A stretch of DNA of 64,000 bases, taken from the UHGV virus genome UHGV-1366603; one strand, 5' to 3'. The notes under the pieces were generated by a model, which did not search any database, was not told the origin of the DNA, and worked only from the letters and a program-made list of their open reading frames with translations. The position numbers and the translations under genes are program-made. This document shows positions 25,042 to 48,582 of the stretch, piece by piece (the stretch's first letter is position 1; each line of letters opens with the position of its first letter). Origin of the DNA: a virus.

Positions 25042-25088
25042 TCCTACCGCCCGATTCTATGGGCGGTAGGTGTTTTATTTTTTTTTGA
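25042..25088 (+). terminator. rho-independent terminator
   Basis: CCTACCGCCC-loop-GGGCGGTAGG hairpin followed by TGTTTTATTTTTTTTT. Confidence 0.85.
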
Positions 25089-26093: not shown

Positions 26094-29000
26094 ATGAGAA
26101 AACATTTTCAGCGTCACGCGATTAGCTACGCGTTATCGTTAGCTTACGGACACCAATCCTTCGTTACCCGGAATACGGGAACGACTCACGACGCGCACAA
26201 CGAACACTATATTCAAAACGAAGAAGGTGTTCTGTCGAATAACCGTCATTTCATTGCTGACACTATGGCGGAATACCAACCGAACGGGGACGCGACGACC
26301 GAGGGTCAGTCGTTACACGTTATTGGTTACTGCCACATGTATATCGCAACGAAAGACGAAAGATGGTTAGATGCGGCGAAACACGCCTGGGATGCGTACA
26401 ACACGTACTTCTACGTCGGACAACCTATTCCGACCACACCCCAGCGTCGGATTTGTAACTGGTTGGTAAACGGGAAAGAACCGGTATTAGCACATTACCC
26501 AATACACCCTACAGAACCTACCCAAGGTGGGTATAAAAGCGTCCCTGTAAGGTTTACAAACGGACAGTGTAAAATACCGCATGGTGCACCGTTCTGGGGA
26601 GAGTATTTGGATACCTTTACGTTTGCGCATCGTGGTCACCCTGCCTGGGAAGCCATTAACGCAGACGTACAGATTATTAAGGAAGACAAAGAAGGGTCAA
26701 TTAATTGGGAAGACGTTTTAACTCACGTTATTACCAATCCTGATAAACCCTACGAGGCCAAAGCCTGGGTTGATTGGCCTACGTTATTAAACAACGCTAC
26801 AGGGTACACCCCGCTTTGGGGTGGCAGTGCAACAAAAGCCCCTAAACACGACGTTGACTGGATAATTGCCTGGACAGGTAACAAAATCCAGGATAGTGAG
26901 ATTATTGAGACAGGATTAGCAGACGCTGATAAAGGTACCGTACAGTTAAAAGACACGCAGTTAAACGGTGTCTATTTGATTAACTACGCGGTAAAACTGC
27001 CTGTCGAACACGGGGGTTACGAGTTTAAACGTAACGAACCGTGGCACAACCGTCCAGTTCACACGCCGTTCTTAGGATCGAAAAACCAATACGGTAACGC
27101 CGCTGATGCTGAACTGTGGTTTATTGACGCCTGTTATTTGCTGTGGCGAATCACGGGTGAAGAGAAATACAAACAAGCATTAGACTGTGCTTTCTACACA
27201 GCACACGAGTACACGTATATTGATGCGGTAGATAAATTCTTCCGTCGTTCTACCGCTGCGGAAACACCGTTTACGGATGGTATTTCGTACGACTTCAATT
27301 ACCCGGACACCGTAAGTGCTACCTACGGCCGTGATGAGAATGGGGATATTACCATCCATGTGCCTGAAGCGGCACAACACTTTATGGAGCAGAAAGCGGT
27401 TCGATTCAGGATTAACAAAGACTCCAAACTACGTGTCACGTACGGCGGGGTTTGTAAGAACGGTGATCCTGTCTACTGTAAAGCAATGGTAAACATTAAC
27501 CCTGTGAAAGCCGACACCGAGGAAGTAAACTGGTACGGCTTAACCTTACCTCAGTCTACGGTAAATACCGTTAAGCAGTACGATATTGACTTAGGCCAAC
27601 TTGCCCGTATCACCACCCCAGAAGGAGAAGACTACCTGATAGCCGACGCCCGTGCGTGTTCGGACTATGGTGGTTGTACGTGGGAAGAACGTTTTGAGAA
27701 CAGCATTTACGACGGTCGCGCGGGTACCGTTATAGAAGCTGAATTTCCTGATGACGGTGCCGGGTTTATTATCGGGTTCTGGTTAACCGCTGAAGAGAAG
27801 GTAAAACCGGTTTCTATTGTCTACCGTGCGGACGCAGATTTTAACCTGCGTTTAGTCGACAGTGATAACTGGCGTTGGTGGTGGATGTTACCCAACACAA
27901 ACAACGAATGGCGTCAGGTAACGTTGAATCCGGATGATGCCACACTTTCCGGTTATCAGCCAGACCACACAGACGACGACCCTAAACCGGCAGCACCGAA
28001 TTTCGATAAGGTGGATCAGGTCACGATTCTCCCTGACTCTACGGTTGACCATGCACATTTTGCCTACTATTGTGTTAACGATGTTCCACCGCTCTTTAAT
28101 AAAGACGACGGTTATATTCTCACCTTCCGTATTGGGTTACGCGGCGGTGGAGAGTATGATGCGAAGGTCGGCGACTGTACGATCAAAGATTACCGATTGG
28201 ATTCGTTAGCGTATTGTCCGGGTACGATACCGTTCTCGAACAACTATTCAGAAGGTTCAGAACAGTTAGGTGCCTGGCACGGGATGCCTTATCCGGGTTA
28301 TCAGTATCCGTTTATGTACACTATCCACAAAGACGACCGGTATAAGCTGTGGTTAGATAACCAGATTCAATTCTTGTACGATTCGCAGTTGGCTTACCAA
28401 CGGCAACTCGGTGAATTAGGGCCCGGTTGTGCAGCGTATATCTGGAACCGTTGGGACAACTACAGCTACGGAGAAGCAGATACCTGGACAACGTTCCATT
28501 GGGGCGACGACCATCCGTGGGCAGGGTATCAACCTCGTGCGTTTCATGCTGCGTGTCGGTGCTGGTACGAACTGAAACTAAGAGGTAAAGAGATTCCTGA
28601 GGCGTTAACAAGCTATATTGAAAACTGGGTGAATTGGCTAGGTGGGTTTGTGGATCGGTTTAACGGACACACCCCTAACGAGTTCCCTACAGCACCTGAT
28701 AAACCCGTTTGGGTGGAAGATGACTTCACCGCACATATGTGTGCGTTGTGGTTAGCAGGCTGTTGTTGGGCATTACTCGCTGGTGCAACTAATCCGAACT
28801 ACGATAAGGTAGTTAATGCGGCAATTAAGGAGTTAGGTGAAGGGTTTACGATTACCTCAATTCCGAATAAGCCGATTAACGGGGCGTGGTCTCCAGCCGC
28901 TCGAGAGTCTTCCGATAACGGAATGGCTTTTGGGTTCTACAGTGGGGAAGCGTTCCGTGCGTTAGGTCTCTACGTTACTTACAAAACCTACGGAGCCAAC

Positions 29001-29099
29001 GCTAATATTTATCGTGACTTAGCGATTGCTGACCACAGTCAAGCGGTCTTAGACGTTACGTTAACGATAGAAGACGATGCATTAAAACCAGAGCAATAA
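26094..29099 (+). CDS. large virion-associated protein (1001 aa), putative tailspike body or receptor-binding/enzymatic protein
   Basis: Long ORF directly after the anchor-motif gene; Trp/Tyr/Gly-rich as in carbohydrate-active tailspike domains. Function inferred from context only. Confidence 0.55.
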   Translation: MRKHFQRHAISYALSLAYGHQSFVTRNTGTTHDAHNEHYIQNEEGVLSNNRHFIADTMAEYQPNGDATTEGQSLHVIGYCHMYIATKDERWLDAAKHAWDAYNTYFYVGQPIPTTPQRRICNWLVNGKEPVLAHYPIHPTEPTQGGYKSVPVRFTNGQCKIPHGAPFWGEYLDTFTFAHRGHPAWEAINADVQIIKEDKEGSINWEDVLTHVITNPDKPYEAKAWVDWPTLLNNATGYTPLWGGSATKAPKHDVDWIIAWTGNKIQDSEIIETGLADADKGTVQLKDTQLNGVYLINYAVKLPVEHGGYEFKRNEPWHNRPVHTPFLGSKNQYGNAADAELWFIDACYLLWRITGEEKYKQALDCAFYTAHEYTYIDAVDKFFRRSTAAETPFTDGISYDFNYPDTVSATYGRDENGDITIHVPEAAQHFMEQKAVRFRINKDSKLRVTYGGVCKNGDPVYCKAMVNINPVKADTEEVNWYGLTLPQSTVNTVKQYDIDLGQLARITTPEGEDYLIADARACSDYGGCTWEERFENSIYDGRAGTVIEAEFPDDGAGFIIGFWLTAEEKVKPVSIVYRADADFNLRLVDSDNWRWWWMLPNTNNEWRQVTLNPDDATLSGYQPDHTDDDPKPAAPNFDKVDQVTILPDSTVDHAHFAYYCVNDVPPLFNKDDGYILTFRIGLRGGGEYDAKVGDCTIKDYRLDSLAYCPGTIPFSNNYSEGSEQLGAWHGMPYPGYQYPFMYTIHKDDRYKLWLDNQIQFLYDSQLAYQRQLGELGPGCAAYIWNRWDNYSYGEADTWTTFHWGDDHPWAGYQPRAFHAACRCWYELKLRGKEIPEALTSYIENWVNWLGGFVDRFNGHTPNEFPTAPDKPVWVEDDFTAHMCALWLAGCCWALLAGATNPNYDKVVNAAIKELGEGFTITSIPNKPINGAWSPAARESSDNGMAFGFYSGEAFRALGLYVTYKTYGANANIYRDLAIADHSQAVLDVTLTIEDDALKPEQ

Positions 29100-29116
29100 T
29101 AACCCGCTTATAAAAA

Positions 29117-29146
29117 ATATTGGGGGGGGGTAAGCTACTCCCCCGA
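29117..29146 (+). repeat. G-rich conserved intergenic element (G9 tract plus CTCCCCCGAT)
   Basis: TATTGGGGGGGGGTAAGCTACTCCCCCGAT; related to the elements at 35047 and 47917. Confidence 0.5.
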
Positions 29147-29176
29147 TCTTTAGCTCCCGATAGAGAACTTAATATC

Positions 29177-32100
29177 ATGGCGAAAGCGGTAAAGAAAATA
29201 CGATTGCATAATCTTAGGCCGTATACCGGTGATATCGGTGAAGGCGTTTTACTTTTCTCCAAGGATGAGAAAGATTATAAGTTACCAGTCCGTGAGGTTA
29301 TTGCAGATATTGACACCGTACGTAATGCGGTGGCTGATGCACAAACAGCAGCAGCGCAATCACAAGAAGCTGCAACTCAGGCTACACAAGCAAAGAATTT
29401 AGCAGAAACAGCAAAACAACAAACTGACACCGTTGCGGCTACGGTTGCTCAACAAGCACAAACCGTAACAGAAAAAGCAACGGAAGTCGGTACAAAACAC
29501 ACTGAAGTGTTAGCCGCGAAAACGGCGGTAGATACCCAGGTTGTGTCCGTTAATGAGAAAGCGCAAGCGGTAGCGGCAAGTGAGGCCAACGTCACGCAAG
29601 CAGAGACTACTGTTACGAAGAAAGCAGAAGCCGTTGCGACACAAGCCGGTCAAGTTGAACAGTCTCTTACGGCAGTTAACGAAGCTGTCGCGTCGGTAGA
29701 GTCGTCAAAAGCCTCTGTAGAAGCTACAGCAACGCAAGTTACCTCGGACAAAGAAACCGCAGAGAATGCGGCAACCCGTTCTGAGGCAGCCGCTAAGCGA
29801 GCAGAAGAAATTGTTGCACAAGGTACTGTTGATGCAACAACGTCCAGTAAAGGTATCGTTAAACTTAATAATACCTTAACCAGTGACTCGGTTACTGAAG
29901 CTGCTACTCCGTCAACGGTTAAGCAGTTAAATGATGATTTGCAGTTAAAAGCAAACCGTCACAACCCAACCTTTACCGGTACGGTAAAAGCACCAACCCC
30001 TGCTGCGGATTCTAACGACACGAGTGTCTCAACGACTGCATGGGTACGACAAGCGATTGCTGAATTAGTGGACTCTTCTCCCGAGACGTTAGATACGTTA
30101 TCAGAAATTGCAGCCGCGTTAGGAAACGATCCTAACTTTGCGACAACGATAACGAATCAGCTCGCGGGTAAACAGCCGTTAAGTCCGTTACTGACAGCGA
30201 TTGCCGCAGTCACCACCGCTGCAAACAAACTCCCTTACTTTACCGGTAGTAATCAGGTAGGGTTAGCGGATTTCACCTCGACCGCACGCGATTTATTAGC
30301 AAAAGGGTCGACGGCCGATATCATTAGCTTCCTGGGTTTGAAAACTACCGTCGATAAAGCTGCGGGGGCGATGCAGCGCAATTCTAATGGTGCAGATATT
30401 CCTGACAAAGCCACCTTCGCGAAGAATATTGGATTGTCAGCAGAGACGTATCTGAAGTTTAATGGGGAGATGGCAGTAGATGCAGATATCAACACCTTCG
30501 GCCCAGTCGAAGCGTTTATGGGTGTTTGGTCTAAAGCCACGTCTACGAATGCAACAATTGCAAAGAACTTCCCGGAAGATGATGCAGTTGGTTACTTAGA
30601 AGTATTCAAAGCAGGTAACTACAGCGGAAGTCAACGTTTTACCATACGTAACGGTAACGTCTATACTCGTCGTTTAACAGGAACCTGGAACGGTACTAAC
30701 GGCCCTTGGTCACCCTGGAGAATGACAACCACCGCGAACCGTCCGCTCTCTACCACTATTGACCTTAACACCTTAGGTGGTGTTGAACACATGGGTCAGT
30801 GGCGTAACTCCAGTTCTTCTCTTGCGACGTTCGATCGTCATTATCCCGAAGAAGGTGGTAATGCTCAAGGTGTGTTAGAAGTAATGGAAGGTGGTCTCTA
30901 CGGACGTATGCAACGTTACACCACTCGTCGTGGTACGATGTATATCCGTGGGTTGACTGCGACTTGGGATGCGTCTAATCCGCAGTGGGAAGACTGGATT
31001 CAAGTTGGGTATCAGGTAGACGGTGCCTACTATAAGGGTAGCTTTAATAACTTAACTAAACCCGGTCGTTTTAGTGTTACCGGTGAGGCTACTGACGGAC
31101 CGTTAACAGGGCCTTCTGGTGAAACTTTGTTAGGTGTCTGTGAAGTCACCCTGCGCTTAGACGGTGTAGGTGTCGAACAAAATTACACCACTTACGGTAC
31201 AGGTGCTATTTATAAAGGTCGTAAGTTCCATCGTATCCGTACGGGGAATGTCTGGAGCGAGTGGCGTGAAGTTTATACGTCTAGTTCATTAGCGATGCTT
31301 TTAGGAATCGGTGGAGTTGCAGCTAAGGTCGATCCGTTGGACTGGCAAACCTACGACTTCGTTCCTGGACAGATGTTAACGACACCGTTGAACACCATGA
31401 AAAACATTCCTGCGGGAATGGATTGGGGTGTGATCAACGGTAACTTAGTTAACATCCTTGTAGGTCCGTCTGACGACACTGGTACCGGCCGCAGTATGCT
31501 GGTTTGGCGTAGCACGGTGTCTACTGCCAACTATCGCTTCTTTGCGGTACGTATCGCCGGTGAGAAGGGTAGTCGTACGATTACACCACGCCAGATGCCT
31601 GTATTGAACGCAGCGCACACCTGGGCAGAGAAACAGACCTTTGCAAAAGGGTTAGCAGGTGAGTTAACAGGCAATGCTTCAACCGCCACTAAATTAAAGA
31701 CGGCACGTAGAATTGGTGGGGTCGCCTTCGACGGTAGCGGCGATGTTAACCTCCCAGGTGTTAACCAACAAGGTAATCAAAACACCACGGGTAACGCCGC
31801 GACAGCCACTAAACTTCAAACTGCCAGAAATATTAACGGTGTGAGATTCGATGGTTCTGCTGACATCAATATCAACACCCTGGTGGGTCGTGGTCGGGTT
31901 ACCGCTCTAACCGGTTCAAACAAAGGTACACCTGGTATTCAAATGTACGAAGTTTACAATAACGGTTATCCAACCGCTTATGGTAACTTACTGCATTTGG
32001 GTGGTGCTACTGCGGTAGGTGAAGGTGAACTGTTAATCGGATGGTCGGGCACGAGTGGTGCGCACGCTCCAGTTTATATTCGTAGTCGACGTGATTCAGC

Positions 32101-33643
32101 GGATGCGCCGTGGTCAGATTGGGCACAAGTTTATACTGCCCGTGACAGTATTCCTGGCGTAAATACCACCGGTAATCAGGATACTACTGGCAATGCCGCT
32201 ACCGCGACGAAACTGAAAACCGCTCGCAGAATCGGCGGCGTTACATTTGACGGTACTGGGGATATCAATTTACCGGGGGTTAACCAAGCCGGTAACCAGA
32301 ATACGTCAGGTAATGCTGCGACAGCGACTAAACTTCAGACTGCGCGAAATATAGGCGGTGTGGCTTTTGATGGTACTAAAGACATCAGTTTACCTGGTGT
32401 AAACCAGACGGGTAATCAGTCGACTACCGGAAACGCAGCCACGGCAACAAAGTTGCAGACAGCGCGTACCATTAACGGTATCGCATTTGACGGTACTAGA
32501 AATATATCGTTAGGGCCTGCCGATATAGGTTGTCCGGCTTCGCCCACTGGTTGGTTGGAGACTGGTAAAGACGGCGGCGCAATAACTACAGCACAGCTAG
32601 TGACGTTATTGCAAAATAACGGCGCGTTTACCACAAAATCATGGGTTGCTCGCTGTGCATGGGCTTATGCTGCTAGTGCGTCCATACCGAACAGCGAGAC
32701 GGGTTGTGGTGTTATTCCGTTAGCTGGGGCTGTTATAGAAGTGATTAGTAACAGCGCAAACAACTACACGATTCGTATAACGACCCCCACAACGGCGAGC
32801 GTCGACGGCGCACTCACTAATGCGGAGTTTATCTACGTAAATAACGGTGATGCTTACTCACCAGGTTGGCGTCGCGCTTACAATACGAGAAACAAGCCTA
32901 CTGCTGCGGATGTTGGGGCGTTGCCATTATCTGGCGGAACAATGACTGGTGTGCTGACGCTGCAAAATGTGAGTCAGCCTCTCAAGACGCCGGGTGGCGG
33001 CATTCTGGCAAATGATGGAAATTTATACATCAATAAGTCAGGATTTGCAGGCTGGATTGATGCGCTGTTTTTGAAGAACAGCGGCGGTACTCTGACTGGC
33101 GGCTTGACTGTTAATGGTAAACTGGTTACGAAGCATCCTGATTTTCGAATCGCTTATGGTAGCTGCGGTTTCATTTTACGTAATGATGGTGCCAATACCT
33201 ATTTCTTAGTAACCGACTCCGGACAAGCCGCAACGGGTTCCTGGAACGGACTACGTCCGTTGTATTTTAATAACTCTAACGGTCAAGTAACCTTTGGTCA
33301 TAACGTTTCTAGCAACGGTAACGGTTCGTTTAACGATGTACAGATTCGTTCTGACCGTCGAAACAAACGTAATCTGGTGAAACTGGATAACGCGTTAGAC
33401 CGTTTAGAAGCGCTTACCGGGTATCTGTACGAGGTTCAACATCCAGACGACGGTTGGAATACCTCAGTGGGTTTAATTGCCCAGGATGCACTCGTTGCGT
33501 TACCTGAATTGGTTACTGAAGACGATGATGCTATTTCTGGTGAAAAACGTTTGCGTTTGAACTATAATGGCGTTATTGCGTTGTTAGTAGAGGGGATGAA
33601 AGCGTTGCGTCAAGAGGTTAACGAAATTAAAGGAAGATCCTAA
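29177..33643 (+). CDS. long tail fibre protein (1488 aa) with C-terminal intramolecular-chaperone (S74-like) domain
   Basis: AELVDSSPETLDTLSEIAAALGNDPNFATT...LPYFTG matches the conserved segment of P2 gpH / lambda Stf side tail fibres; Ala/Thr/Gln-rich coiled-coil N-region; GNAATATKLQTAR repeats; NTYFL...GSWNGLRP motif; C-terminal ...LEALTGYLYEVQ... resembles the self-cleaving chaperone of endosialidase-type fibres. Confidence 0.85.
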   Translation: MAKAVKKIRLHNLRPYTGDIGEGVLLFSKDEKDYKLPVREVIADIDTVRNAVADAQTAAAQSQEAATQATQAKNLAETAKQQTDTVAATVAQQAQTVTEKATEVGTKHTEVLAAKTAVDTQVVSVNEKAQAVAASEANVTQAETTVTKKAEAVATQAGQVEQSLTAVNEAVASVESSKASVEATATQVTSDKETAENAATRSEAAAKRAEEIVAQGTVDATTSSKGIVKLNNTLTSDSVTEAATPSTVKQLNDDLQLKANRHNPTFTGTVKAPTPAADSNDTSVSTTAWVRQAIAELVDSSPETLDTLSEIAAALGNDPNFATTITNQLAGKQPLSPLLTAIAAVTTAANKLPYFTGSNQVGLADFTSTARDLLAKGSTADIISFLGLKTTVDKAAGAMQRNSNGADIPDKATFAKNIGLSAETYLKFNGEMAVDADINTFGPVEAFMGVWSKATSTNATIAKNFPEDDAVGYLEVFKAGNYSGSQRFTIRNGNVYTRRLTGTWNGTNGPWSPWRMTTTANRPLSTTIDLNTLGGVEHMGQWRNSSSSLATFDRHYPEEGGNAQGVLEVMEGGLYGRMQRYTTRRGTMYIRGLTATWDASNPQWEDWIQVGYQVDGAYYKGSFNNLTKPGRFSVTGEATDGPLTGPSGETLLGVCEVTLRLDGVGVEQNYTTYGTGAIYKGRKFHRIRTGNVWSEWREVYTSSSLAMLLGIGGVAAKVDPLDWQTYDFVPGQMLTTPLNTMKNIPAGMDWGVINGNLVNILVGPSDDTGTGRSMLVWRSTVSTANYRFFAVRIAGEKGSRTITPRQMPVLNAAHTWAEKQTFAKGLAGELTGNASTATKLKTARRIGGVAFDGSGDVNLPGVNQQGNQNTTGNAATATKLQTARNINGVRFDGSADININTLVGRGRVTALTGSNKGTPGIQMYEVYNNGYPTAYGNLLHLGGATAVGEGELLIGWSGTSGAHAPVYIRSRRDSADAPWSDWAQVYTARDSIPGVNTTGNQDTTGNAATATKLKTARRIGGVTFDGTGDINLPGVNQAGNQNTSGNAATATKLQTARNIGGVAFDGTKDISLPGVNQTGNQSTTGNAATATKLQTARTINGIAFDGTRNISLGPADIGCPASPTGWLETGKDGGAITTAQLVTLLQNNGAFTTKSWVARCAWAYAASASIPNSETGCGVIPLAGAVIEVISNSANNYTIRITTPTTASVDGALTNAEFIYVNNGDAYSPGWRRAYNTRNKPTAADVGALPLSGGTMTGVLTLQNVSQPLKTPGGGILANDGNLYINKSGFAGWIDALFLKNSGGTLTGGLTVNGKLVTKHPDFRIAYGSCGFILRNDGANTYFLVTDSGQAATGSWNGLRPLYFNNSNGQVTFGHNVSSNGNGSFNDVQIRSDRRNKRNLVKLDNALDRLEALTGYLYEVQHPDDGWNTSVGLIAQDALVALPELVTEDDDAISGEKRLRLNYNGVIALLVEGMKALRQEVNEIKGRS
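31668..31875 (+). repeat. in-frame tandem repeats inside the tail fibre gene (block 1)
   Basis: Two ~120-nt units encoding GNA(S/A)TATKL(K/Q)TAR.I(G/N)GV.FDGS.D(V/I)N. Confidence 0.8.
32187..32515 (+). repeat. in-frame tandem repeats inside the tail fibre gene (block 2)
   Basis: Three ~120-nt units encoding GNAATATKL(K/Q)TAR.I.G(V/I).FDGT.(D/N)I(N/S)LPGVNQ.GNQ.T. Confidence 0.8.
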
Positions 33644-34425
33644 TGGCAGTTGTCGGCGTAGGTGGTTGGATTGGTTCTTCAGCAAAAGCTGAAACTGGTA
33701 ACGATTGGATGTCTGGCGCGATGCGCACACTTGGTGTGCCGGTTCCAGGCTGGATGTCGCAATTGGCGGGAAAATCAAAAGAGGCTCAGTATTCGATCGG
33801 GGCTAATCACAATTACAATAAAGATACGCTTATTAACTATTTACGTTCCATAGGCTCTACTGCTGTCGTTGTGACCATTACAGGGGATTTAGTGTCTTAT
33901 AGTAGCGGGGTTCCTTGTTTAGAGTTCCCTAGCAATCTTCCAAATTCGTATATTACCCTCATCATCAATCCTGGGGTTACAGTATACGGCAGAGGAGGCA
34001 ACGGCGGTTCTAACTCACCAGGCGGTGCAGGTGGAACCGCAATACAGAACGGAATAGGAAACAGACTGCGTATAACCAACCGTGGCGCTATTGCCGGAGG
34101 CGGTGGCGGCGGTGGCGGCGGTAACAGGGGTAGACTAATATTTGGTGGTGGCGGTGGTCGCCCATTCGGTGCTGGTGGGTCTTCCTCTCATATGAGTTCC
34201 GGTGCGGCTGCTGGTACTATTTCCGCTCCTGGTAGAGGATCTGTTGGTGAGGGGTCTCTTAGTGCATATACAGGCGGTTCGGGTGGTAATGTCGGTGCTG
34301 GTGGAGGAAGATGTAATACTCATGGTAACGGTACAGAATATAACGGCGGAGCAGCTGGTAAAGCTGTTACTGGTAATGCGCCAAGATGGGACGCAGTAGG
34401 TGCAATATACGGTTCACGTGTTTAA
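33643..34425 (+). CDS. glycine-rich fibre-tip protein, possible gp38-type adhesin (260 aa)
   Basis: Immediately downstream of the tail fibre; poly-Gly motifs (GGGGGGGGGN, FGGGGGRPFGAGG, GGSGGNVGAGGG) separated by short segments, as in T2-type gp38 adhesins; N-terminus paralogous to the next gene. Confidence 0.45.
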   Translation: MAVVGVGGWIGSSAKAETGNDWMSGAMRTLGVPVPGWMSQLAGKSKEAQYSIGANHNYNKDTLINYLRSIGSTAVVVTITGDLVSYSSGVPCLEFPSNLPNSYITLIINPGVTVYGRGGNGGSNSPGGAGGTAIQNGIGNRLRITNRGAIAGGGGGGGGGNRGRLIFGGGGGRPFGAGGSSSHMSSGAAAGTISAPGRGSVGEGSLSAYTGGSGGNVGAGGGRCNTHGNGTEYNGGAAGKAVTGNAPRWDAVGAIYGSRV

Positions 34426-34441
34426 TTAAAAAGGAGGGTAG

Positions 34442-34954
34442 ATGGGGGTAGCGTCAGGATGGGTCGGATCTTCAGCTAGGAATGAAACTGGCCAACAATG
34501 GATGAGCGCTGCGGGTAGTAAATTAGGATTGGGTAGACCTTTTATGATGAGCCAAATGGTAGGCCGATCTACGGGTTGTAAAATTGCGACCGCTTACTAC
34601 AAAGGGAATCCTCCTGATAAAGTTGAAAACTGGGGGGCCGTAGGTTCAGATTGGCCATTGGCTGAAAAGAACAAAGGCACAATTACTGGTGCTACGAGCT
34701 GTGGTTTAGGTCGTTTAGTGGGGATCGTACTTACGCAAGCTCACTACATTTCTGGTGTTCCACCCACTGCGGCTTTATATATCGCAGGAGGAAGGGCGAG
34801 TAACATTACGGTGACGGTTGGTGGTGTTTCGCAAGCATTTACTTACCATGATGTTATTAACGGTTTTCACTATTATTGGCAAGGAACACCGAGTTCGGCC
34901 TTTATAGCAGCAATGAAGAAAACGGGCGTTACACAAGATTTGAAAGTTCGCTAA
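34442..34954 (+). CDS. fibre-tip/adhesin-like paralog (170 aa)
   Basis: AAGGAGGG RBS; N-terminus MGVASGWVGSSARNETGQQWMSAAG parallels MAVVGVGGWIGSSAKAETGNDWMSGA of the 33643 gene; C-terminal part differs (no poly-Gly). Confidence 0.4.
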   Translation: MGVASGWVGSSARNETGQQWMSAAGSKLGLGRPFMMSQMVGRSTGCKIATAYYKGNPPDKVENWGAVGSDWPLAEKNKGTITGATSCGLGRLVGIVLTQAHYISGVPPTAALYIAGGRASNITVTVGGVSQAFTYHDVINGFHYYWQGTPSSAFIAAMKKTGVTQDLKVR

Positions 34955-35046
34955 CTAATTAGGGGTAAAACGACAACTAAAACTAGTAAAATAAGAGTTC
35001 GTGAATTCGTAATTCAATATTTTTTATAGAAATGCTGATTTATTAG

Positions 35047-35066
35047 AATCGGGGGAGGGGGTGAAA
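35047..35066 (+). repeat. G-rich conserved intergenic element (AATCGGGGGAGGGGGTGA)
   Basis: Near-identical to AATCGGGGGGGGGTGA at 47917; lies in the 162-nt gap upstream of the 35117 gene. Confidence 0.5.
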
Positions 35067-35116
35067 TGTTTTTAGCCAACATTTTACGTCTCCTCAATCA
35101 TAGGAGGTAACCATAC

Positions 35117-35629
35117 GTGGAACAATTCACGCCTGATTTGTCGTTAACTTCACTTAACATGGTTATTTCACTGGTTAACCATGACCTCCAGCTCGACTTG
35201 CAAGAGAACGAGGTTGAAGTCAGCGACGTAAAGACCAGTAACGAAATGGATCGTGACACCACTGCTGTTGTAAAGATAAAACGTCCCGGTAACAGAACGT
35301 TACAAATCTATTACAACCGTTTAACCGCAGAACGTTGGTTAAACCAGCAACCTATTCTGGTGCAAGTAACTGGAGAGGGGTTTAGCACACACGATTTAAT
35401 CGATGCGATTAACGCAGCCTGTGGCAGTAACCTGCAACCCGAAGATCTTCAGGACGATTCATTTACAGTAGGAAAAGACGCTGTAACGTTACAGGTATCA
35501 CCTAACTCCCTAAGTTATAAAGGCCAATTCTCTGTTTTGGTTTTTGGTAACGGCGAAGAAGCCGCAGTAACAAAAGATGACAACCTAATCGTTACCGCAG
35601 ATAATCGCGTCTTAACCTTTGGAGGTTAA
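35117..35629 (+). CDS. hypothetical protein (170 aa); paralog of the 25103 gene
   Basis: GTG start with GGAGGT RBS; shares PDLSLTS, NHD, YYNRL, CGSNLQPEDL, VLTF with the 25103 gene. Confidence 0.7.
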   Translation: MEQFTPDLSLTSLNMVISLVNHDLQLDLQENEVEVSDVKTSNEMDRDTTAVVKIKRPGNRTLQIYYNRLTAERWLNQQPILVQVTGEGFSTHDLIDAINAACGSNLQPEDLQDDSFTVGKDAVTLQVSPNSLSYKGQFSVLVFGNGEEAAVTKDDNLIVTADNRVLTFGG

Positions 35630-35631
35630 CA

Positions 35632-36252
35632 GTGGCTGAACTGGTAGGAAAGGTACGCATTCACGAGCTACCGTCACTTTCAGAAGACATCACTGGTGTG
35701 GTGGTGTTAGCGTCTAAGGAACAAACCGAATATCAACTCCCGATTGAGAATTTAGGGGGCGGCGAGGTTACAGTGAGTCCGTCAGCGAATAACATCCTTA
35801 AGTCTAACAGCGACGGACTGTTTGTTGACGGCGCACATCCTATTGTACCGAAAATGGATGCAAAAACCTTATCGGGAAATATGGTGGTAGAAAAAACGTT
35901 GACAGGCGGTGCAGTAATCTGCAAAACAACAGTTGACGTTAATAATAGACTGGGGGTTTCGCAATTATCTGGAGTGTCAATTTATAGCCAGTGTCTGCTG
36001 GAAAATAAATTGGTTTACCTGGCAGAAGACGGCAGTATTATTGATGCGTACTTCTACATTAGTAATACAAAGACCACAGCCAGTACAATAACCCACACCA
36101 TTCGGGTTGTCTTAGCGAAAGTACCTTCTAAAGTTGTCGATATCACCGATTTATCTGAAACTGAGGTGCAGTACGAGAATGGTAATTTGCCTGTTAAGAT
36201 CGTTATTAAGCATCTTACAGGGACAACACTTTCCCAGAACGGAATGAAATAA
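35632..36252 (+). CDS. fibre-like protein with conserved N-terminal anchor motif (206 aa)
   Basis: GTG start with GGAGG RBS; N-terminus MAELVGKVRIHELPSLSEDITGVVVLASKEQTEYQLPI matches the 25632 and 29177 N-termini. Confidence 0.55.
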   Translation: MAELVGKVRIHELPSLSEDITGVVVLASKEQTEYQLPIENLGGGEVTVSPSANNILKSNSDGLFVDGAHPIVPKMDAKTLSGNMVVEKTLTGGAVICKTTVDVNNRLGVSQLSGVSIYSQCLLENKLVYLAEDGSIIDAYFYISNTKTTASTITHTIRVVLAKVPSKVVDITDLSETEVQYENGNLPVKIVIKHLTGTTLSQNGMK

Positions 36253-36257
36253 ATTTT

Positions 36258-36307
36258 AGGTAGTAGGGGCTAAGCCCCTACTACCTTTCTTTTTTTTTAT
36301 TTTTTCT
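36258..36307 (+). terminator. rho-independent terminator
   Basis: AGGTAGTAGGGG-CTAA-CCCCTACTACCT hairpin followed by a long T-run. Confidence 0.9.
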
Positions 36308-36331
36308 CAGATATATATTACCTAGAGGAGA
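36306..36331 (+). promoter_or_regulatory. conserved promoter-like motif, copy 2 (CTCAGATATATATTACCTAGAGGAGA)
   Basis: Directly after terminator, ~50 nt upstream of ATG 36379. Confidence 0.45.
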
Positions 36332-36378
36332 GCGAAATTTACATTCGCACTATTAGTTATAGCCGAAAGGAGGATTAG

Positions 36379-37230
36379 ATGTATCACCCGTATTATCTCC
36401 CGCACATTCTAGCAAATAGGGACCCTGGTTATTACTACGAACAAACAAAGGGGTCTTTTAATCGACTTTACATTCGCGAATTTAATACCGTCGAAATGAC
36501 GGATGACCAGTATCTGGAGTATCTAAAAGACCTTTACGGTTTTTCAAAATCGAATAAAGGTGACTTTGGACGTTCCGCAGTCATTAGGGTTGGTGAATAT
36601 CGTCATTTGGCTAAGCCTGTTACGTACCCTATTGTTACGCGTGCTTATACATCGGATAGGCAATATATTGCTGAACTAAAATTTCCTTTACGGATAGACG
36701 GGCCTCAAATTAGCGCTATAGAAGTAGAAATTCAACCAATTGCTGAAGACTATATTGAAGACTACTTCAAGAAAGCTAAAGAGGTACTCGAGGAGGGTTT
36801 AAGCTACTCTGAAGAAGGAACGATTTGTCTTCTCTCGTTACTCTCGAAGACTTATGTCACAGCAAATTTCCGTATCTCCGATTCTAGTAACTACAATACA
36901 CTTACTCCCTCTAAGACAAAACCGGTTTATTGGGACGATCGGTTAGTCGACAGACACCGTTGGCTTACTATCTTAGATAAAGTAAAATTCGAACCCCCTA
37001 AACACACCGAAGACAACTTTATTTTATTACACAACTTCGAACCGATCTATATCCCGACGCATTTTGAACAAGCCTTACGTCATCGATTGAAGTATGTGTT
37101 GGAATTACGGTACGGGAAGATAAACGGACTAACCTGTTCTGGTGAATTGAGTGAAGAAGAACGCGAGAAGATAAAAATCGTGTTTGATAAGTTGGTTGAA
37201 GATTACATTAAGAAGGAAGGACAATTATGA
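36379..37230 (+). CDS. hypothetical protein (283 aa)
   Basis: GAAAGGAGG RBS before ATG 36379. Confidence 0.75.
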   Translation: MYHPYYLPHILANRDPGYYYEQTKGSFNRLYIREFNTVEMTDDQYLEYLKDLYGFSKSNKGDFGRSAVIRVGEYRHLAKPVTYPIVTRAYTSDRQYIAELKFPLRIDGPQISAIEVEIQPIAEDYIEDYFKKAKEVLEEGLSYSEEGTICLLSLLSKTYVTANFRISDSSNYNTLTPSKTKPVYWDDRLVDRHRWLTILDKVKFEPPKHTEDNFILLHNFEPIYIPTHFEQALRHRLKYVLELRYGKINGLTCSGELSEEEREKIKIVFDKLVEDYIKKEGQL

Positions 37231-37670
37231 AACCAAATTCTACTAACGGCATTATGTTACTTTGTGATTCTGAAACGTTAGCAAATCGTATTCGTGGTTT
37301 GATGGAAGTACGTTGGAAGCAAAAGGTTCGCGTGGATTACGCTGCTCCGTTTGTTCACGTTACTTGGTTACCAGAAGCTAGTGATTTCAAAGAAAGTATA
37401 ACCACGAGAAGAATTAAAGAATGGTTATCGGCAATCATTAATAAACAGATTACCGTTATCAATTTCCAACTTTTCGGGACTACTGAAGAACATGAAATCT
37501 TGAAACAGTGTTTAAGAGCGTTGGCTGTTTCCTTTTCTGTTCGTGGTAGCTGCTACACGGCTTACTTTATCGGTTCACTTGAACTGTTTAAGAATACGCT
37601 AATGCTTCAGCTAAAAGAAGACTACAAACTTTTAAATAAAATCGATTTTGAATTTCCAGGTATGATTTAA
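37227..37670 (+). CDS. hypothetical protein (147 aa)
   Basis: ATGA overlap with upstream stop. Confidence 0.7.
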   Translation: MKPNSTNGIMLLCDSETLANRIRGLMEVRWKQKVRVDYAAPFVHVTWLPEASDFKESITTRRIKEWLSAIINKQITVINFQLFGTTEEHEILKQCLRALAVSFSVRGSCYTAYFIGSLELFKNTLMLQLKEDYKLLNKIDFEFPGMI

Positions 37671-37680
37671 GGAGTATAAA

Positions 37681-38208
37681 ATGCATCAGAAATTAATGAC
37701 TAGTAACAAAGTTCTCCGTTTTAACCAACGTGAGTTAGAAGTTAGCGGAGAACGAATTGGTCGAGTTCGTAATCTTTTAACTGTGTTAGGTTTGGTCGGC
37801 GTTACATTTACATACACAGGTAAAATTCTTTACGCGACCTGGGCTTCATGCGAAAGTGACGCTACCTACGATAAAATTCTCGATGGTATTAAAGACGACT
37901 CAGTTTATTGTAATGTTTTCCGTGGCGTTTCGTACATCGTTGGTGATAAGTTAATGGATAAACTGAACGCCAAATACGGAGACGGTATTATCACCACCGT
38001 CTTCTTTGGTGGCGATATGCTAATCGTAACGAAAAAGGAAATTAGTCTGGAACTTCAAAGTGATATAAACTACGAACTTCAGATTGGCCCACAATTTAGC
38101 TGTAGAATTAATGTTGTTGTCGGTAAAGATGATTTCTACGATGAAGACGAGTCAGTAGAAATTCGAAAAATTGCGAGTCGCTACATGGATTCTATTTTCC
38201 GTAGTTAA
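37681..38208 (+). CDS. hypothetical protein (175 aa)
   Basis: AAGGAG RBS before ATG 37681. Confidence 0.7.
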   Translation: MHQKLMTSNKVLRFNQRELEVSGERIGRVRNLLTVLGLVGVTFTYTGKILYATWASCESDATYDKILDGIKDDSVYCNVFRGVSYIVGDKLMDKLNAKYGDGIITTVFFGGDMLIVTKKEISLELQSDINYELQIGPQFSCRINVVVGKDDFYDEDESVEIRKIASRYMDSIFRS

Positions 38209-38264
38209 TAATCAAAAAGGGCTGTAAGTCCCCCACATAGTGTAAACCCCTAAAGGAGCATTAA

Positions 38265-38780
38265 ATGTCTGTAACAATCAACATGAATCTTTATACCAAA
38301 CGTGAACGTCAAATCTTGGCTAATCAGCCAGGCGTTACTACTATCGACGGTAAACCTATCGACCCATTAAAAGTCGTTGTCGCACACAACTGTTTCGAGA
38401 AAGACTGGGACATCATGTATTTCCGTTGCCGTTCTGTCGCCAACGCACTTACCCAGCTCTCTAACTATCATCCCGGTCCAGTATTAAAAGACTGGGTTTG
38501 GTTAGTCCCTAAAACACCTTCAGCGATTGAGTATCCGTCGGGTATGGTCTATATTCGTCCTGTCGCTTATCCAGAACGTTTAAAAGAATATCTGGAGGTT
38601 ATCTGGGACCGACCTCGTAAAGAGCTGGTGACGATTATCCGTTTACTTCAAATGTGCGATATCCCCAATGTTTCGAATCTGAAACTTACGTCTCGCGATG
38701 TTAACCAGGCTTACTGGGAACTGGAGTGGACTGAACCGAAATTCGAAAACACTAACCGCATCTTCTTGCACCGGGGGTAA
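38265..38780 (+). CDS. hypothetical protein (171 aa)
   Basis: AAAGGAG RBS before ATG 38265. Confidence 0.7.
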   Translation: MSVTINMNLYTKRERQILANQPGVTTIDGKPIDPLKVVVAHNCFEKDWDIMYFRCRSVANALTQLSNYHPGPVLKDWVWLVPKTPSAIEYPSGMVYIRPVAYPERLKEYLEVIWDRPRKELVTIIRLLQMCDIPNVSNLKLTSRDVNQAYWELEWTEPKFENTNRIFLHRG

Positions 38781-38782
38781 AA

Positions 38783-46754: not shown

Positions 46755-47234
46755 TTATTCTACCGGGTGCAACATAGTGCCGGTATCTGGAATGCTGCCT
46801 TCGTGACATCTGAAGAACGTTACACCTTTACCTTCACCCGTTTTGTAGTTGACGGTAGAATACGCAAACGTTGGGGTTTTCGACAGTAACCCGTTTACAC
46901 GGTAATAGCGCTCACCGGTAACGACGTTTAAGTTACCGTCCACCTTACCTAACAGGTCTTTATAAAGTTGCGGAGATTCAATTTTACCTTCGTCCCATGT
47001 AGCGACCCAATTCGCCCCTGTATCCATGACTAACACCGAAAGGGGCATCAGTTTTAGACTAGACGGTACGGGTTTAAAATCGTCGAATTCTTGAGAAGCA
47101 CCTGTACAGGTGTAAATGACCATATCGTGTTGGTCAACAGGTACGGTGGAGAACTGACCTTCTGCGTTCGGCTGAATAGCACAACTTGCCAATGTCATTA
47201 CAAAAGCAACGACCACGAGAATGCGTTTTAGCAT
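46755..47234 (-). CDS. outer-membrane lipoprotein (lipobox LASC); possible superinfection-exclusion factor
   Basis: MLKRILVVVAFVMTLAS-C: signal peptide with lipobox L-A-S-C; Ala at +2 argues for outer-membrane sorting. Only minus-strand gene inside a plus-strand block, with its own terminator. Confidence 0.75.
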   Translation of the reverse strand: MLKRILVVVAFVMTLASCAIQPNAEGQFSTVPVDQHDMVIYTCTGASQEFDDFKPVPSSLKLMPLSVLVMDTGANWVATWDEGKIESPQLYKDLLGKVDGNLNVVTGERYYRVNGLLSKTPTFAYSTVNYKTGEGKGVTFFRCHEGSIPDTGTMLHPVE

Positions 47235-47372
47235 AATCTCACCCTTATTAAAATTAAGAAAAATTATTTTTTCAGGTTAGCGCCTACTGCCAACCGTCAT
47301 ATCTATATTTTAGTAAATGTCTAAAATAACTTTCTTATGCAATCCACCCCTACCACTTACGAGGTAAAAACG

Positions 47373-47909
47373 ATGGCTAAAGCCTTCAATCAGCAGCTTA
47401 TCGAAGCTGTAAAAGCCAAAAACCCTGAAACTGCTTCTAATCTAACCGTAGAAGACGTTGACTTTGGTGCCGTAGAAGCACATAGCGGAAACGGTGGCCG
47501 TAACACCAAAGTTACGCTGACTGCAAAAGAAGAAAGTGCTAACTTTACTGGCAGTAAAGAATTCCACTACACTCGTCTGGCTTCTCAAGATCTGATCGGT
47601 GCCAAAGCTTACGAACAAGCCGGTAGCCTCGATCTGGAAAACTCTGTCATCGTAACCAAACTCAACGAAGAAATGGTTACTAAAGGTTATACCGATGACG
47701 CTTTCGCTGAAGGCGAACTGACCATTGAGAAAACTGAAGGGGATAGCGGCGCTAAAGTTTACACCGTTAAAGTAAACGATGCACACATTAAATTCCTGGC
47801 TGGTACTATTGCCGTCTTCACTTATTCCAACCCAGCTCCTGAGAAGGTAGCACTGAGCGGTCTGGAAGGTGAACTTGATGGCTTCACTGCACCGGGTGTC
47901 GGTGGCTAA
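47373..47909 (+). CDS. hypothetical protein (178 aa); member of the six-gene paralog family
   Basis: GAGGT RBS before ATG 47373; DVDFGAVEAHSGNGGRNTKVTLTA...FHYTRL parallels the 47980 gene; C-terminal GELDGFTAPG. Confidence 0.7.
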   Translation: MAKAFNQQLIEAVKAKNPETASNLTVEDVDFGAVEAHSGNGGRNTKVTLTAKEESANFTGSKEFHYTRLASQDLIGAKAYEQAGSLDLENSVIVTKLNEEMVTKGYTDDAFAEGELTIEKTEGDSGAKVYTVKVNDAHIKFLAGTIAVFTYSNPAPEKVALSGLEGELDGFTAPGVGG

Positions 47910-47916
47910 GTAAGCG

Positions 47917-47945
47917 AAATCGGGGGGGGGTGACCTCCCCCGATA
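47917..47945 (+). repeat. G-rich conserved element forming a hairpin (AATCGGGGGGGGGTGACCTCCCCCGAT)
   Basis: G9 tract; ATCGGGGG pairs with CCCCCGAT; followed by a weak T-rich run, so it may also act as a terminator. Confidence 0.55.
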
Positions 47946-47979
47946 TTTCTCTATCTCGTTTTATTAAGGACCTAAGATA

Positions 47980-48510
47980 ATGGCCGCTACTAACCAGATG
48001 ATGTTGGTCGCGCTTTATAATGCTGCTAACACTGAGCTACCGCATCAGATTACTGATAAAGAAGTGTCCTTTGGTCTCCCTACTGCGCTGGAAGGCGAAA
48101 GTAAGAATACCAAAGTTACCATGACTGCACTACCGGGTTCTGAGAATTTCAAAGGCGAAATCGAACTGCATTACGATCGTCTGGAGCCGGGTGTTGTAGG
48201 ACGGATTGAACTAACTGACGATCTGTCTCGCTGGGTTCAAGAAAATGAACTCCGCGCTTGGTTACAATATTACATCAACAAAGTAAAACCTGACGACGCT
48301 ATCGCACCAGGCGACGTTGTGTACAACACCGAAGACCAGAAAGACGAACATGAAAACGTCACTCTGCGTACCGTGACGTGCACCGTTACCGAAAAGAACC
48401 TCCGTTATAAACCGGGTGTAATGGCAACTTTCGTAATTACACCGAAGGTTGTCGATAATCGTATTGACCTGGCCACCACCAACGGTGAGTTGGACGGTTT
48501 TACTGCTTAA
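47980..48510 (+). CDS. hypothetical protein (176 aa); member of the six-gene paralog family
   Basis: AAGGA RBS; KEVSFGLPTALEGESKNTKVTMTA...LHYDRL; C-terminal GELDGFTA. Confidence 0.7.
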   Translation: MAATNQMMLVALYNAANTELPHQITDKEVSFGLPTALEGESKNTKVTMTALPGSENFKGEIELHYDRLEPGVVGRIELTDDLSRWVQENELRAWLQYYINKVKPDDAIAPGDVVYNTEDQKDEHENVTLRTVTCTVTEKNLRYKPGVMATFVITPKVVDNRIDLATTNGELDGFTA

Positions 48511-48545: not shown

Positions 48546-48582
48546 TTTACCTACCTCCGTAAAGGAGGTAGGTATTTTTTTG
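48546..48582. terminator. bidirectional rho-independent terminator
   Basis: TACCTACCTCC-GTAAA-GGAGGTAGGTA hairpin with an A-run upstream and T-run downstream; sits between the plus gene ending 48510 and the minus gene ending 48590. Confidence 0.85.

What the first reader, a model, noticed from the sequence alone, without database searches (positions are those of the whole stretch)
29117..47945. Recurrent G-rich element with a G9 homopolymer upstream of fibre-module genes
AATCGGGGG(G/A)GGGGTGA occurs at 35047-35066 and 47917-47934, and a variant TATTGGGGGGGGGTAAGCTACTCCCCCGAT at 29117-29146; two copies are followed by CTCCCCCGAT, forming a G/C hairpin. All lie in intergenic gaps just upstream of receptor-binding or paralog-family genes (29177, 35117, 47980). 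A 9-G homopolymer is a classic slipped-strand tract, so length variation could modulate expression; alternatively the element may be a recombination hotspot for cassette exchange or a structured 5' UTR.
Basis: seen in the sequence. Interest (0 to 1): 0.5.

Follow-up and report, generated by a model that had tools for sequence, protein, structure and literature searches.

The report
G-run RNA hairpins between phage fibre genes
The three G-rich elements are the left arms of conserved RNA stem-loops sitting between co-transcribed tail-fibre genes of a giant (about 222 kb) enterobacterial phage; the G runs do change length between related phages, but the changes fall in the loop and leave the hairpin unchanged, so this is ordinary gene punctuation and not a genetic switch.

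Summary
G9 runs at 29122-29130 and 47922-47930 are the only G/C runs of 7 or more in the window, and a G5AG5 tract lies at 35051-35061. All three are intergenic. All three, not two, are the 5' arm of a stem-loop whose 3' arm is CUCCCC-like.

The window is the virion and tail-fibre region of an SPN3US/phiEaH2-like jumbo phage. A complete 221,873-bp relative has long G runs at only two of the three homologous sites and nowhere else.

Across about 25 related contigs the tracts vary: G9-G11, or interrupted forms such as GGGGGAGG and GGAGGGG. The hairpins persist throughout. G·U pairs make the sense-strand RNA fold 4-8 kcal/mol more stable than the antisense. Predicted stability of e3 is flat from G9 to G14.

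The homopolymers probably arose by A-to-G changes in a GGGGGAGG arm, tolerated as G·U, and then drift by slippage.

Position argues for intra-operon hairpins (attenuators, or mRNA stability or processing elements) and against full terminators or an on/off switch. They lie inside operons, 16-35 nt before the next ribosome-binding site or start codon, with weak or no U-tract.

Only one cassette junction coincides with an element.

Verdict: ordinary, low interest.

The parts
29119..29147 (+). e1 stem-loop: ATTGGGGGGG / CTCCCCCGAT, or in another register GGGGGGGTA / TACTCCCCC. G9 at 29122-29130. It lies 20 nt after the stop of the tail-protein gene and 30 nt before the fibre ATG.
   Evidence: Homologs keep a hairpin with different arms. 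Distant relatives have a canonical terminator at the same position.
35047..35095 (+). e2: AATC, then G5AG5 (35051-35061), an inner 10-bp helix, a 7-nt loop and a CUCCUC 3' arm (35090-35095). The stem-loop spans 35055-35095 and ends 16 nt before the start of the GGAGG Shine-Dalgarno sequence of gene 35117.
   Evidence: It is conserved in all relatives, including those with a different upstream cassette.
35066..35110 (+). 14-codon upstream ORF inside e2 (MFLANILRLLNHRR*). It is preceded by a GGAGG-like sequence, and its stop overlaps the Shine-Dalgarno sequence of gene 35117. Significance unproven.
   Evidence: Read from the sequence. The ATG and an open frame are kept in relatives, but the peptide is not conserved.
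47919..47944 (+). e3 stem-loop: ATCGGGGGGGG-GTGA-CCTCCCCCGAT. It has 11 pairs including one G·U, and a GNRA-type GUGA loop when the tract is G9. G9 at 47922-47930.
47945..47956 (+). Moderately U-rich tail ATTTCTCTATCT after e3.
   Evidence: flags it as terminator-like; one search counts 6 T in the first 10 nt.
26094..29099 (+). Tail protein gene (1001 aa) upstream of e1.
   Evidence: phrog_2871, E = 0. It is syntenic in SPN3US-like phages.
29177..33643 (+). Long tail fibre gene (1488 aa) downstream of e1.
   Evidence: Tail-fibre PHROGs; Pfam Gp34_trimer, Phage_fiber_2 and Peptidase_S74.
33643..34954 (+). Two gp38-type adhesin genes (260 aa and 170 aa), T-even-like.
   Evidence: Pfam GP38 and Gp38_N. 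77-91% nucleotide identity to gp38 of RB49/JSE/Phi1-type phages.
35117..36252 (+). DUF7941 gene (170 aa) and a short fibre-like gene (206 aa) downstream of e2.
47337..48510 (+). Two DUF7941 paralogs (190 aa and 176 aa, 30% identical) flanking e3.
36258..36286 (+). Canonical strong terminator (13-bp stem followed by a T9 run) that closes the 25.1-36.3 kb operon holding e1 and e2. A promoter-like motif follows at 36308-36323.
48548..48574 (.). Bidirectional terminator-like hairpin TACCTACCTCC...GGAGGTAGGTA that closes the two-gene unit holding e3.

Best explanation
The three elements are a small family of sense-strand RNA stem-loops. They lie between co-transcribed virion and fibre-module genes of an SPN3US/phiEaH2-like jumbo phage.

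Anatomy:
- The G run is the 5' arm of a G-rich/C-rich helix (GGGGGAGG pairing with CCUCCCCC).
- An A-to-G transition in that arm is tolerated as a G·U pair and creates a homopolymer.
- The homopolymer then drifts in length by replication slippage.
- Extra Gs only enlarge the loop, so the hairpin and its 3' edge stay the same.

Proposed function (inferred, not shown):
- The hairpins act as intra-operon punctuation.
- e1 and e3 would be leaky terminators or attenuators, and/or 3'-end stabilisers of the upstream message.
- e2 would be a structured intercistronic or 5'-UTR element just ahead of the ribosome-binding site of gene 35117, for example a processing or stability site.
- Together they would set the relative amounts of tail, fibre and DUF7941 proteins.

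Shown here: the hairpins, their conservation, their sense-strand bias, the tract polymorphism and its predicted neutrality.

Inferred: the effect on transcription or on mRNA.
For: Structure:
- The hairpins are predicted at -17 to -24 kcal/mol. Folding z-scores are -3.0 (e2) and -3.1 (e3).
- e3 passes the terminator-like scan.

Conservation despite sequence change:
- e1 homologs carry G9/CUCCCCC, G10/CUCCCCCC, GGGGGAGGU/ACCUCCCCC, GGGGGAG/CUCCCCC, UGAGGGG/CUUCCUCA or GGGGGG/CUCUCC. Each folds at the same place.
- e2 is remodelled but still a long hairpin in L078 and L287.
- In L028 the e3 site holds an unrelated hairpin.
- In distant relatives the e1 site holds a canonical intrinsic terminator.

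RNA level, sense strand:
- Variants with G·U pairs fold 4-8 kcal/mol better as sense RNA than as antisense RNA.
- In the ungapped e2 alignment 92.8% of cells are paired, against 51-56% with the partner slid (77.8% at +2, a homopolymer register).

Buffering:
- The synthetic G5-G14 series for e3 gives -16.2 kcal/mol at G5 and -21.5 at G8. It then plateaus at -23.0 to -24.0 for G9-G14.
- Observed tract lengths (9-11) all lie on the plateau.

Intra-operon position:
- Between the terminators at 25043 and 36258 there is no other canonical terminator and no promoter-like motif. e1 and e2 lie inside this 11-kb unit.
- e3 lies between two genes that are closed by the hairpin at 48548.
- The gap from hairpin to the next Shine-Dalgarno sequence or start codon is 16-35 nt.

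Not a dispersed repeat:
- The complete relative NZ_CP173450.1 has G/C runs of 7 or more only at the e2 and e3 homologs.

Context from the literature:
- Related giant phages carry more than 130 mapped termination sites each. Many share arm motifs, and fewer than half are predicted to be canonical intrinsic terminators (PMC10914365; PMC11512511).
Against: - No transcript data are available, so termination, read-through, processing and stability effects are all inferred.
- Formal covariation is weak. There are no double-sided compensatory changes in the e2 alignment of close relatives, and it scores no better than shuffles. RNAalifold on e1 found 0 compensated pairs.
- Support therefore rests on thermodynamics, on wobble-compatible single changes, and on hairpin persistence or replacement in divergent relatives.
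- e1's fold is not better than shuffles of the same composition (z = -0.85).
- e1 and e2 lack a proper U-tract, so they fail the terminator scan.
- The three elements share more sequence (AATC, TGA, CT..GAT) than a generic hairpin needs, although their flanking genes are at most 30% identical. A sequence-specific role is therefore not excluded.
Confidence: 0.62

Rival explanations
1. Contingency locus. Slippage in the G tract (G8/G9/G10 and so on) reversibly changes expression of the downstream receptor-binding or fibre-module gene. This would give a phage population that is mixed in host range or in fibre complement.
For: - Tract length differs among related genomes at all three sites, including G9 versus G11 on identical local flanks (L086/L087 and L080/L082).
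- The only long G runs of a 222-kb genome lie at these fibre-module sites.
- Homopolymers of 6 or more are hypermutable in T-even and other phages (PMC12633550).
Against: - The tract is not in an ORF. G9 and G10 occur in an otherwise identical e1 context (L239 versus L230), which would frameshift any coding extension.
- It is not between promoter elements either; no promoter-like site lies at the elements.
- Predicted hairpin stability is flat from G9 to G14, and the 3' edge next to the U-rich tail is unchanged.
- Many relatives have interrupted, non-slippery arms (GGGGGAGG, GGAGGGG) at the same sites.
- One relative has an unrelated hairpin at the e3 site.
- Some length differences may be homopolymer errors in assemblies.
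Confidence: 0.07
2. Recombination or cassette-exchange signal. On this view the element is a short conserved sequence at module borders. Homologous recombination between such sequences would swap fibre and adhesin cassettes, as PeSL promoter-stem-loop cassettes do in T4-type phages.
For: - In relatives with a different second adhesin (L032/L077, L076, L097, L099) homology to the window stops at about 34594 and resumes exactly at 35047, the first base of AATCGGGG.
- e1 and e2 bracket the T-even-like fibre and gp38 module, which lies inside a 9-kb insertion relative to SPN3US-like phages.
- PeSLs are a precedent (PMC2839356, PMC4122927).
Against: - Only one junction type coincides with an element. 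It is equally explained by e2 being the first conserved, functional base of the downstream unit.
- No breakpoints were found at e1 or e3. Fibre variation starts inside the gene, at 32505, not at e1.
- There are only three copies per genome, and no promoter consensus is attached.
- The shared core is under 20 nt and mostly homopolymer, which is a poor substrate for homologous exchange.
Confidence: 0.1
3. Sequence-specific RNA (or DNA) operator. On this view a phage or host factor recognises the AATC-G-run...CUCCCC(C)GAT hairpin. Alternatively, the GGAGG-like arm with the small upstream ORF in e2 acts as a ribosome-loading or translational-coupling device. Either way the fibre-module genes would be controlled together.
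For: - The three elements share flanking bases beyond the G/C stem, although the neighbouring paralogs are at most 30% identical in protein.
- All three precede fibre-module genes.
- e2 holds an ATG with a well-spaced GGAGG, and its stop overlaps the Shine-Dalgarno sequence of gene 35117. The ATG and an open frame are kept in L078 and L287.
Against: - Arm sequences vary freely among relatives: L275 has UGAGGGG/CUUCCUCA and L281 has GGGGGG/CUCUCC. e3 is replaced by an unrelated hairpin in L028.
- The upstream-ORF peptide is not conserved, and a 10-14-codon open frame is likely by chance.
- No Rfam family matches.
Confidence: 0.1
4. Efficient intrinsic terminators that end transcription units, with the downstream genes expressed from their own promoters.
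For: - e3 passes the terminator-like scan (11 pairs, 8 of them G-C, tail ATTTCTCTAT).
- e1 occupies the position of a strong canonical terminator in distant relatives.
Against: - e1 and e2 lack a U-tract.
- Only 16-35 nt separate each hairpin from the next Shine-Dalgarno sequence or start codon.
- None of these short gaps holds the promoter-like motif found after the real terminators of this phage.
- Full termination would therefore silence the fibre and DUF7941 genes.
Confidence: 0.08

Closest known systems
Conserved-motif terminator hairpins of phiKZ-like giant phages: the phiKZ motif BCCYCCCCHWWDGGGRRGGBYTTAT, and the terminator motif families of 201phi2-1 (PMC10914365, PMC11512511)
   Same: - Intergenic homopurine/homopyrimidine G/C stems recur with shared arm sequences in a giant-phage genome.
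- Many mapped 3' ends in those phages are not canonical intrinsic terminators.
- The relative of this window likewise has recurrent arm families, such as TACCTACCTCC and TACCCTACTCC.
   Different: - Arm polarity is reversed here: the G arm is 5' and the C arm is 3'.
- No TTAT or long T tail follows.
- There are only three copies per genome.
- They lie inside operons just ahead of the next ribosome-binding site.
- The 5' arm has become a length-polymorphic homopolymer.
Intercistronic mRNA hairpins that set differential expression within operons: REP-type 3' stabilisers, and the RNase III sites between phage T7 genes (my own knowledge)
   Same: - A stable stem-loop lies between co-transcribed genes, after a stop codon and before the next ribosome-binding site.
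- There is no strong U-tract.
- The e2 stem of about 17 bp with an internal loop is in the size range of RNase III substrates.
   Different: - No cleavage or stability data exist here.
- No sequence similarity to those elements was found.
Phage contingency loci: homopolymer repeats in T2/T4 and other phages (PMC12633550), and polyG tracts in Campylobacter phage receptor-binding protein genes (my own knowledge)
   Same: A G homopolymer of 9 or more, next to receptor-binding genes, with length polymorphism among related genomes.
   Different: Those tracts act by frameshifting ORFs. Here the tract is non-coding, lies in a hairpin arm, and its length is predicted to be neutral above G9.
PeSL promoter-stem-loop cassettes of T4-type phages (PMC2839356, PMC4122927)
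   Same: A short conserved stem-loop-containing motif at the border of a variable module. One adhesin-cassette junction falls exactly at e2.
   Different: - No early promoter is attached.
- There are three copies, not dozens.
- Only one junction coincides with an element.

Membership tests
Intrinsic (Rho-independent) terminator | G+C-rich stem-loop just downstream of a stop codon | tested here: met
   - e1 lies 20 nt after the stop codon, e3 9 nt after, and e2 about 92 nt after.
- The stems have 10-17 pairs.
Intrinsic (Rho-independent) terminator | U-tract immediately 3' of the stem | tested here: not met
   - Only e3 passes the scan, with tail ATTTCTCTAT.
- The e1 tail CTTTAGCTCC has 4 T in 10.
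- The e2 tail is AATCATAGGAGG, with no U-tract.
- This phage's canonical terminators have 7-9 T in 10.
Intrinsic (Rho-independent) terminator | Measured termination of transcription at the site | not testable with these tools
   No transcript data are available for this phage.
Contingency locus (repeat-mediated phase variation) | Hypermutable simple repeat with length polymorphism | tested here: inconclusive
   - Lengths of 9-11 are seen across assemblies, including on identical flanks.
- Assembly homopolymer errors cannot be excluded.
- No within-population read data are available.
Contingency locus (repeat-mediated phase variation) | Repeat placed in an ORF or a promoter spacer, so that length switches expression | tested here: not met
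   - The tract is non-coding (G9 versus G10 in the same e1 context).
- No promoter-like elements flank it.
- Hairpin stability is flat from G9 to G14.
PeSL-type mobile regulatory cassette | Composite of an early sigma-70-type promoter and a stem-loop, in many copies, at indel or replacement borders | tested here: not met
   - No promoter-like site lies at the elements.
- There are three copies per genome.
- One of the three elements coincides with a junction.
phiKZ-type conserved terminator motif | CCYCCCC 5' arm, GGGRRGG 3' arm, followed by TTAT | tested here: not met
   The arms are in the opposite order (G arm 5') and no TTAT follows (compared with PMC10914365).
Any curated RNA family (Rfam 15) | Covariance-model match | tested here: not met
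   No match with E-value up to 1 in 28900-48200 on either strand.

The most novel reading that the evidence does not exclude
The G-run hairpins could be tunable attenuators, or operators specific to the fibre modules. Slippage in the 5' arm, or binding of a factor to the shared AATC-G-run...CUCCCCGAT hairpin, would shift read-through or translation into the long-fibre, short-fibre and DUF7941 genes. A clonal stock of the giant phage would then be mixed in its fibre complement. That would be a contingency locus acting through RNA structure and not through a frameshift.
Probability: 0.07. Interest if true: 0.6.

Novelty: new member of a known kind. Interest (0 to 1): 0.2.

Why it matters
If the best explanation holds, these are routine intercistronic RNA hairpins, and the value of the result is mostly practical.

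- **Operon structure:** the hairpins help mark out the operons of an undescribed, widespread enterobacterial giant phage.
- **Origin of the homopolymer:** a G-rich hairpin arm can turn into a hypermutable homopolymer at no cost, because an A-to-G change is tolerated as a G·U pair and extra Gs go into the loop.
- **Caution for annotation:** a polyG tract next to a receptor-binding gene is not by itself evidence of phase variation.

Only the low-probability reading, length-tuned attenuation of fibre genes, would be of wider interest.

Tried and rejected
- **Exact-protein look-ups for diverse e1 homologs.** The 170-aa ORF 25581-26093 is not on record because the start was called wrongly. The 1001-aa and 153-aa proteins returned only near-identical contigs. 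A DNA anchor (TAGCTCCCGATAGAGAA) in IMG/VR and in metagenomes gave the e1 diversity instead.
- **Formal covariation tests.** No double-sided compensatory pairs were found. Close relatives are too similar, and homopolymer registers blur the alignment. I therefore do not claim covariation support.
- **Passive leftover of gene duplication.** Rejected as the reason for the shared sequence. The DUF7941 paralogs next to e2 and e3 show no significant BLASTP match to each other. The pair flanking e3 is 30% identical.
- **Dispersed genome-wide repeat.** Rejected. Only two long G runs, and the three sites, exist in the complete 221,873-bp relative.
- **Intramolecular G-quadruplex.** Rejected from the sequence: there are one or two G tracts per site, not four.
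- **N-terminal coding extension of the fibre from TTG 29120.** Rejected. G9 and G10 variants in the same context would shift the frame.
- **Known RNA family.** Rejected; there is no Rfam match.
Full report
**1. The observation**

The three sequences are present.
- e1 is TATTG9TAAGCTACTCCCCCGAT at 29118-29147, with G9 at 29122-29130.
- e2 is AATCG5AG5TGA at 35047-35064.
- e3 is AATCG9TGACCTCCCCCGAT at 47918-47944, with G9 at 47922-47930.

Its 17-nt consensus fits neither e2 (11-nt tract) nor e3 (9-nt tract) exactly.

The two G9 runs are the only G or C runs of 7 or more in the 64 kb. About 0.2 G9/C9 runs are expected from base composition. CTCCCCCGAT occurs only at the two hairpins.

All three sites are intergenic.

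**2. The setting**

The window is the virion, tail and fibre region of a giant phage.
- It shares about 73% nucleotide identity with Erwinia phage phiEaH2 and with SPN3US-like Salmonella phages.
- Upstream of e1 is a 1001-aa tail protein.
- Downstream of e1 are a 1488-aa fibre and two gp38-type adhesins. Their DNA is 77-91% identical to gp38 of RB49/JSE-type T-even phages.
- e2 precedes a DUF7941 gene and a short fibre-like gene.
- e3 lies between two DUF7941 paralogs.

Relative to SPN3US-like genomes, window 29100-38264 is an insertion.

Three fibre-like proteins (25632, 29177, 35632) share an N-terminal domain of about 40 aa.

**3. All three are hairpins**

- e3 folds as AUCGGGGGGGG-GUGA-CCUCCCCCGAU, with z = -3.1. 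It is flagged terminator-like.
- e1 folds as AUUGGGGGGG/CUCCCCCGAU or GGGGGGGUA/UACUCCCCC. Its z-score is -0.85, which is not significant because shuffles keep the G and C runs.
Its G tract pairs with CUCCUC at 35090-35095 around an inner 10-bp helix, with z = -3.0.

**4. Relatives**

Close relatives are common.
- They include IMG/VR contigs of 150-225 kb and human gut metagenome contigs.
- They include about 224-kb contigs in isolate assemblies.
- Two are complete circular "plasmid" records: NZ_CP173450.1 (E. coli) and NZ_CP134650.1 (Enterobacter ludwigii).

I read the whole 221,873-bp NZ_CP173450.1.
- Its only G/C runs of 7 or more are the e3 homolog (G9) and the e2 homolog (G10).
- Its e1 is GGGGGAGGT-AAAGC-ACCTCCCCC.

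The element is therefore not a dispersed repeat. It sits at three fixed sites.

**5. Tract variation**

Counts below are loci; some loci come from the same contig.
- e3 is G9 in 12 loci, G10 in 3, G11 in 3 and AG9 in 1.
- e2 is G10 (10 loci), G9 (4), GGAGGGG (3), G5AG5 (2), GAG7 (1) and GGGGGGTGGG (1).
- e1 is GGGGGAGG (6), G9 (5), G10 (3), GGGGGAG, GAGGGG and GGGGGG.

G9 and G11 occur on identical local flanks twice: L086/L087 and L080/L082. The tracts therefore look slippage-prone, though homopolymer errors in assemblies cannot be ruled out.

**6. The hairpin, not the tract, is what persists**

- Every e1 variant folds at the same place although its arms differ.
- e2 is remodelled in L078 and L287 but stays a long hairpin.
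- L028 has an unrelated hairpin at the e3 site.
- Distant relatives have a canonical terminator at the e1 site.
- Variants with G·U pairs fold 4-8 kcal/mol better as sense RNA than as antisense. This points to the RNA of the coding strand.

Formal covariation is weak. There are no double-sided compensatory pairs, and scores match the shuffles. I do not lean on it.

The 3' arms (CCUCCCCC, UCUCC) are the exact complement of the interrupted arms (GGGGGAGG, GGAGG). The homopolymers are most simply explained as A-to-G derivatives kept as G·U pairs.

**7. Length is buffered**

In a synthetic series for e3, stability rises from -16.2 kcal/mol at G5 to -23.8 at G9. It then stays at -23.0 to -24.0 up to G14, because extra Gs only widen the loop.

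The 3' arm, and so the distance to the U-rich tail, does not move. All observed lengths lie on the plateau.

The tract is also not coding: G9 and G10 occur in the same e1 context. No promoter-like site flanks it.

An on/off slipped-strand switch is therefore not supported.

**8. What the hairpins do (inferred)**

This phage's real terminators have a C-rich 5' arm and 7-9 T in the next 10 nt. They are often followed by the motif CAGATA(G/T)ATATTACCT.

- Between the terminators at 25043 and 36258 there is no other terminator and no such motif. e1 and e2 lie inside that 11-kb unit.
- e3 lies inside a two-gene unit closed at 48548.
- Each hairpin ends 16-35 nt before the next Shine-Dalgarno sequence or start codon.
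- e1 and e2 lack a U-tract, and e3 has a weak one.

Full termination would silence the fibre genes. The likeliest role is intra-operon punctuation, meaning partial termination and/or mRNA stabilisation or processing that sets protein ratios.

In related giant phages more than 130 termination sites are mapped per genome. Many share arm motifs, and fewer than half are predicted to be canonical intrinsic terminators (PMC10914365; PMC11512511).

**9. Rival explanations**

- *Recombination hotspot.* Homology to the window resumes exactly at 35047 in relatives with another adhesin cassette. That is one junction, and none occurs at e1 or e3.
- *Sequence-specific operator or translational coupling through the upstream ORF.* The elements share AATC, TGA and CT..GAT, although the neighbouring paralogs are at most 30% identical. 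e2 holds a 14-codon upstream ORF. However, the arms vary freely among relatives and the peptide is not conserved.
- *Known RNA family.* There is no Rfam match.

**10. Verdict**

This is a new member of a known kind, of low interest.

Noticed in passing
window 15179-15194, 36308-36323, 40363-40378 (exact); 20217-20232 (2 mismatches): The motif CAGATA(G/T)ATATTACCT recurs on the + strand in intergenic gaps, three of the four copies a short way 3' of a canonical terminator (7 matches against 2.4 expected at up to 3 mismatches). A similar AGATAGAT(A/G/T)TTATCT motif follows the terminator in distant relatives L001, L033 and L034. It is a candidate promoter for the phage's own RNA polymerase.
   Followed up: partly
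whole window; NZ_CP173450.1 (L220-L224), NZ_CP134650.1 (L287), L080-L099: This SPN3US-like giant phage appears as circular 'plasmid' records of about 222 kb in E. coli 98232 (urine) and Enterobacter ludwigii (gull). It also appears as contigs of about 224 kb in several isolate assemblies and in human gut metagenomes. This suggests a carrier or pseudolysogenic state in enterobacterial isolates.
   Followed up: partly
window 29100-38264: A 9-kb insertion relative to SPN3US-like genomes. It carries a T-even-type long fibre and two gp38-type adhesins, with 77-91% nucleotide identity to RB49/JSE-group gp38. This would be a transfer of a host-range module between T4-like phages and a giant phage.
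   Followed up: partly
window 25632-25811, 29177-29356, 35632-35811: Three fibre-like proteins (153, 1488 and 206 aa) share an N-terminal domain of about 40 aa (MAxAVKKxRLHxL...GVLLxSKDxKxYKLPV), presumably a common attachment domain. DUF7941 paralogs lie at 25103, 35117, 47337 and 47980.
   Followed up: partly
window 35066-35110: A 14-codon upstream ORF inside the e2 hairpin, with a well-spaced GGAGG before its ATG. Its TAA overlaps the Shine-Dalgarno sequence of gene 35117, which starts with GTG. An ATG and an open frame are kept in divergent relatives, but the peptide is not conserved.
   Followed up: partly
L220-L224 (NZ_CP173450.1), e.g. 31908, 149393, 166603, 190305 and 108414, 113781, 195482, 214303: Canonical terminators of the relative fall into families with near-identical arms (TACCTACCTCC...GGAGGTAGGTA and TACCCTACTCC...GGAGTAGGGTA). 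This resembles the conserved terminator motifs reported for phiKZ and 201phi2-1.
   Followed up: no
window 36379-37230: A 283-aa ORF with no PHROG match. It is present in some close relatives and absent in others (L031, L093, L094, L096), so it is an indel hotspot just after the strong terminator and promoter-like motif.
   Followed up: no
window 31667-32507: Diverged direct repeats inside the fibre gene: copies of about 202 nt at 63-73% identity, with two starts spaced 120 nt apart. Relatives lose homology to the window just after them, at 32505.
   Followed up: no
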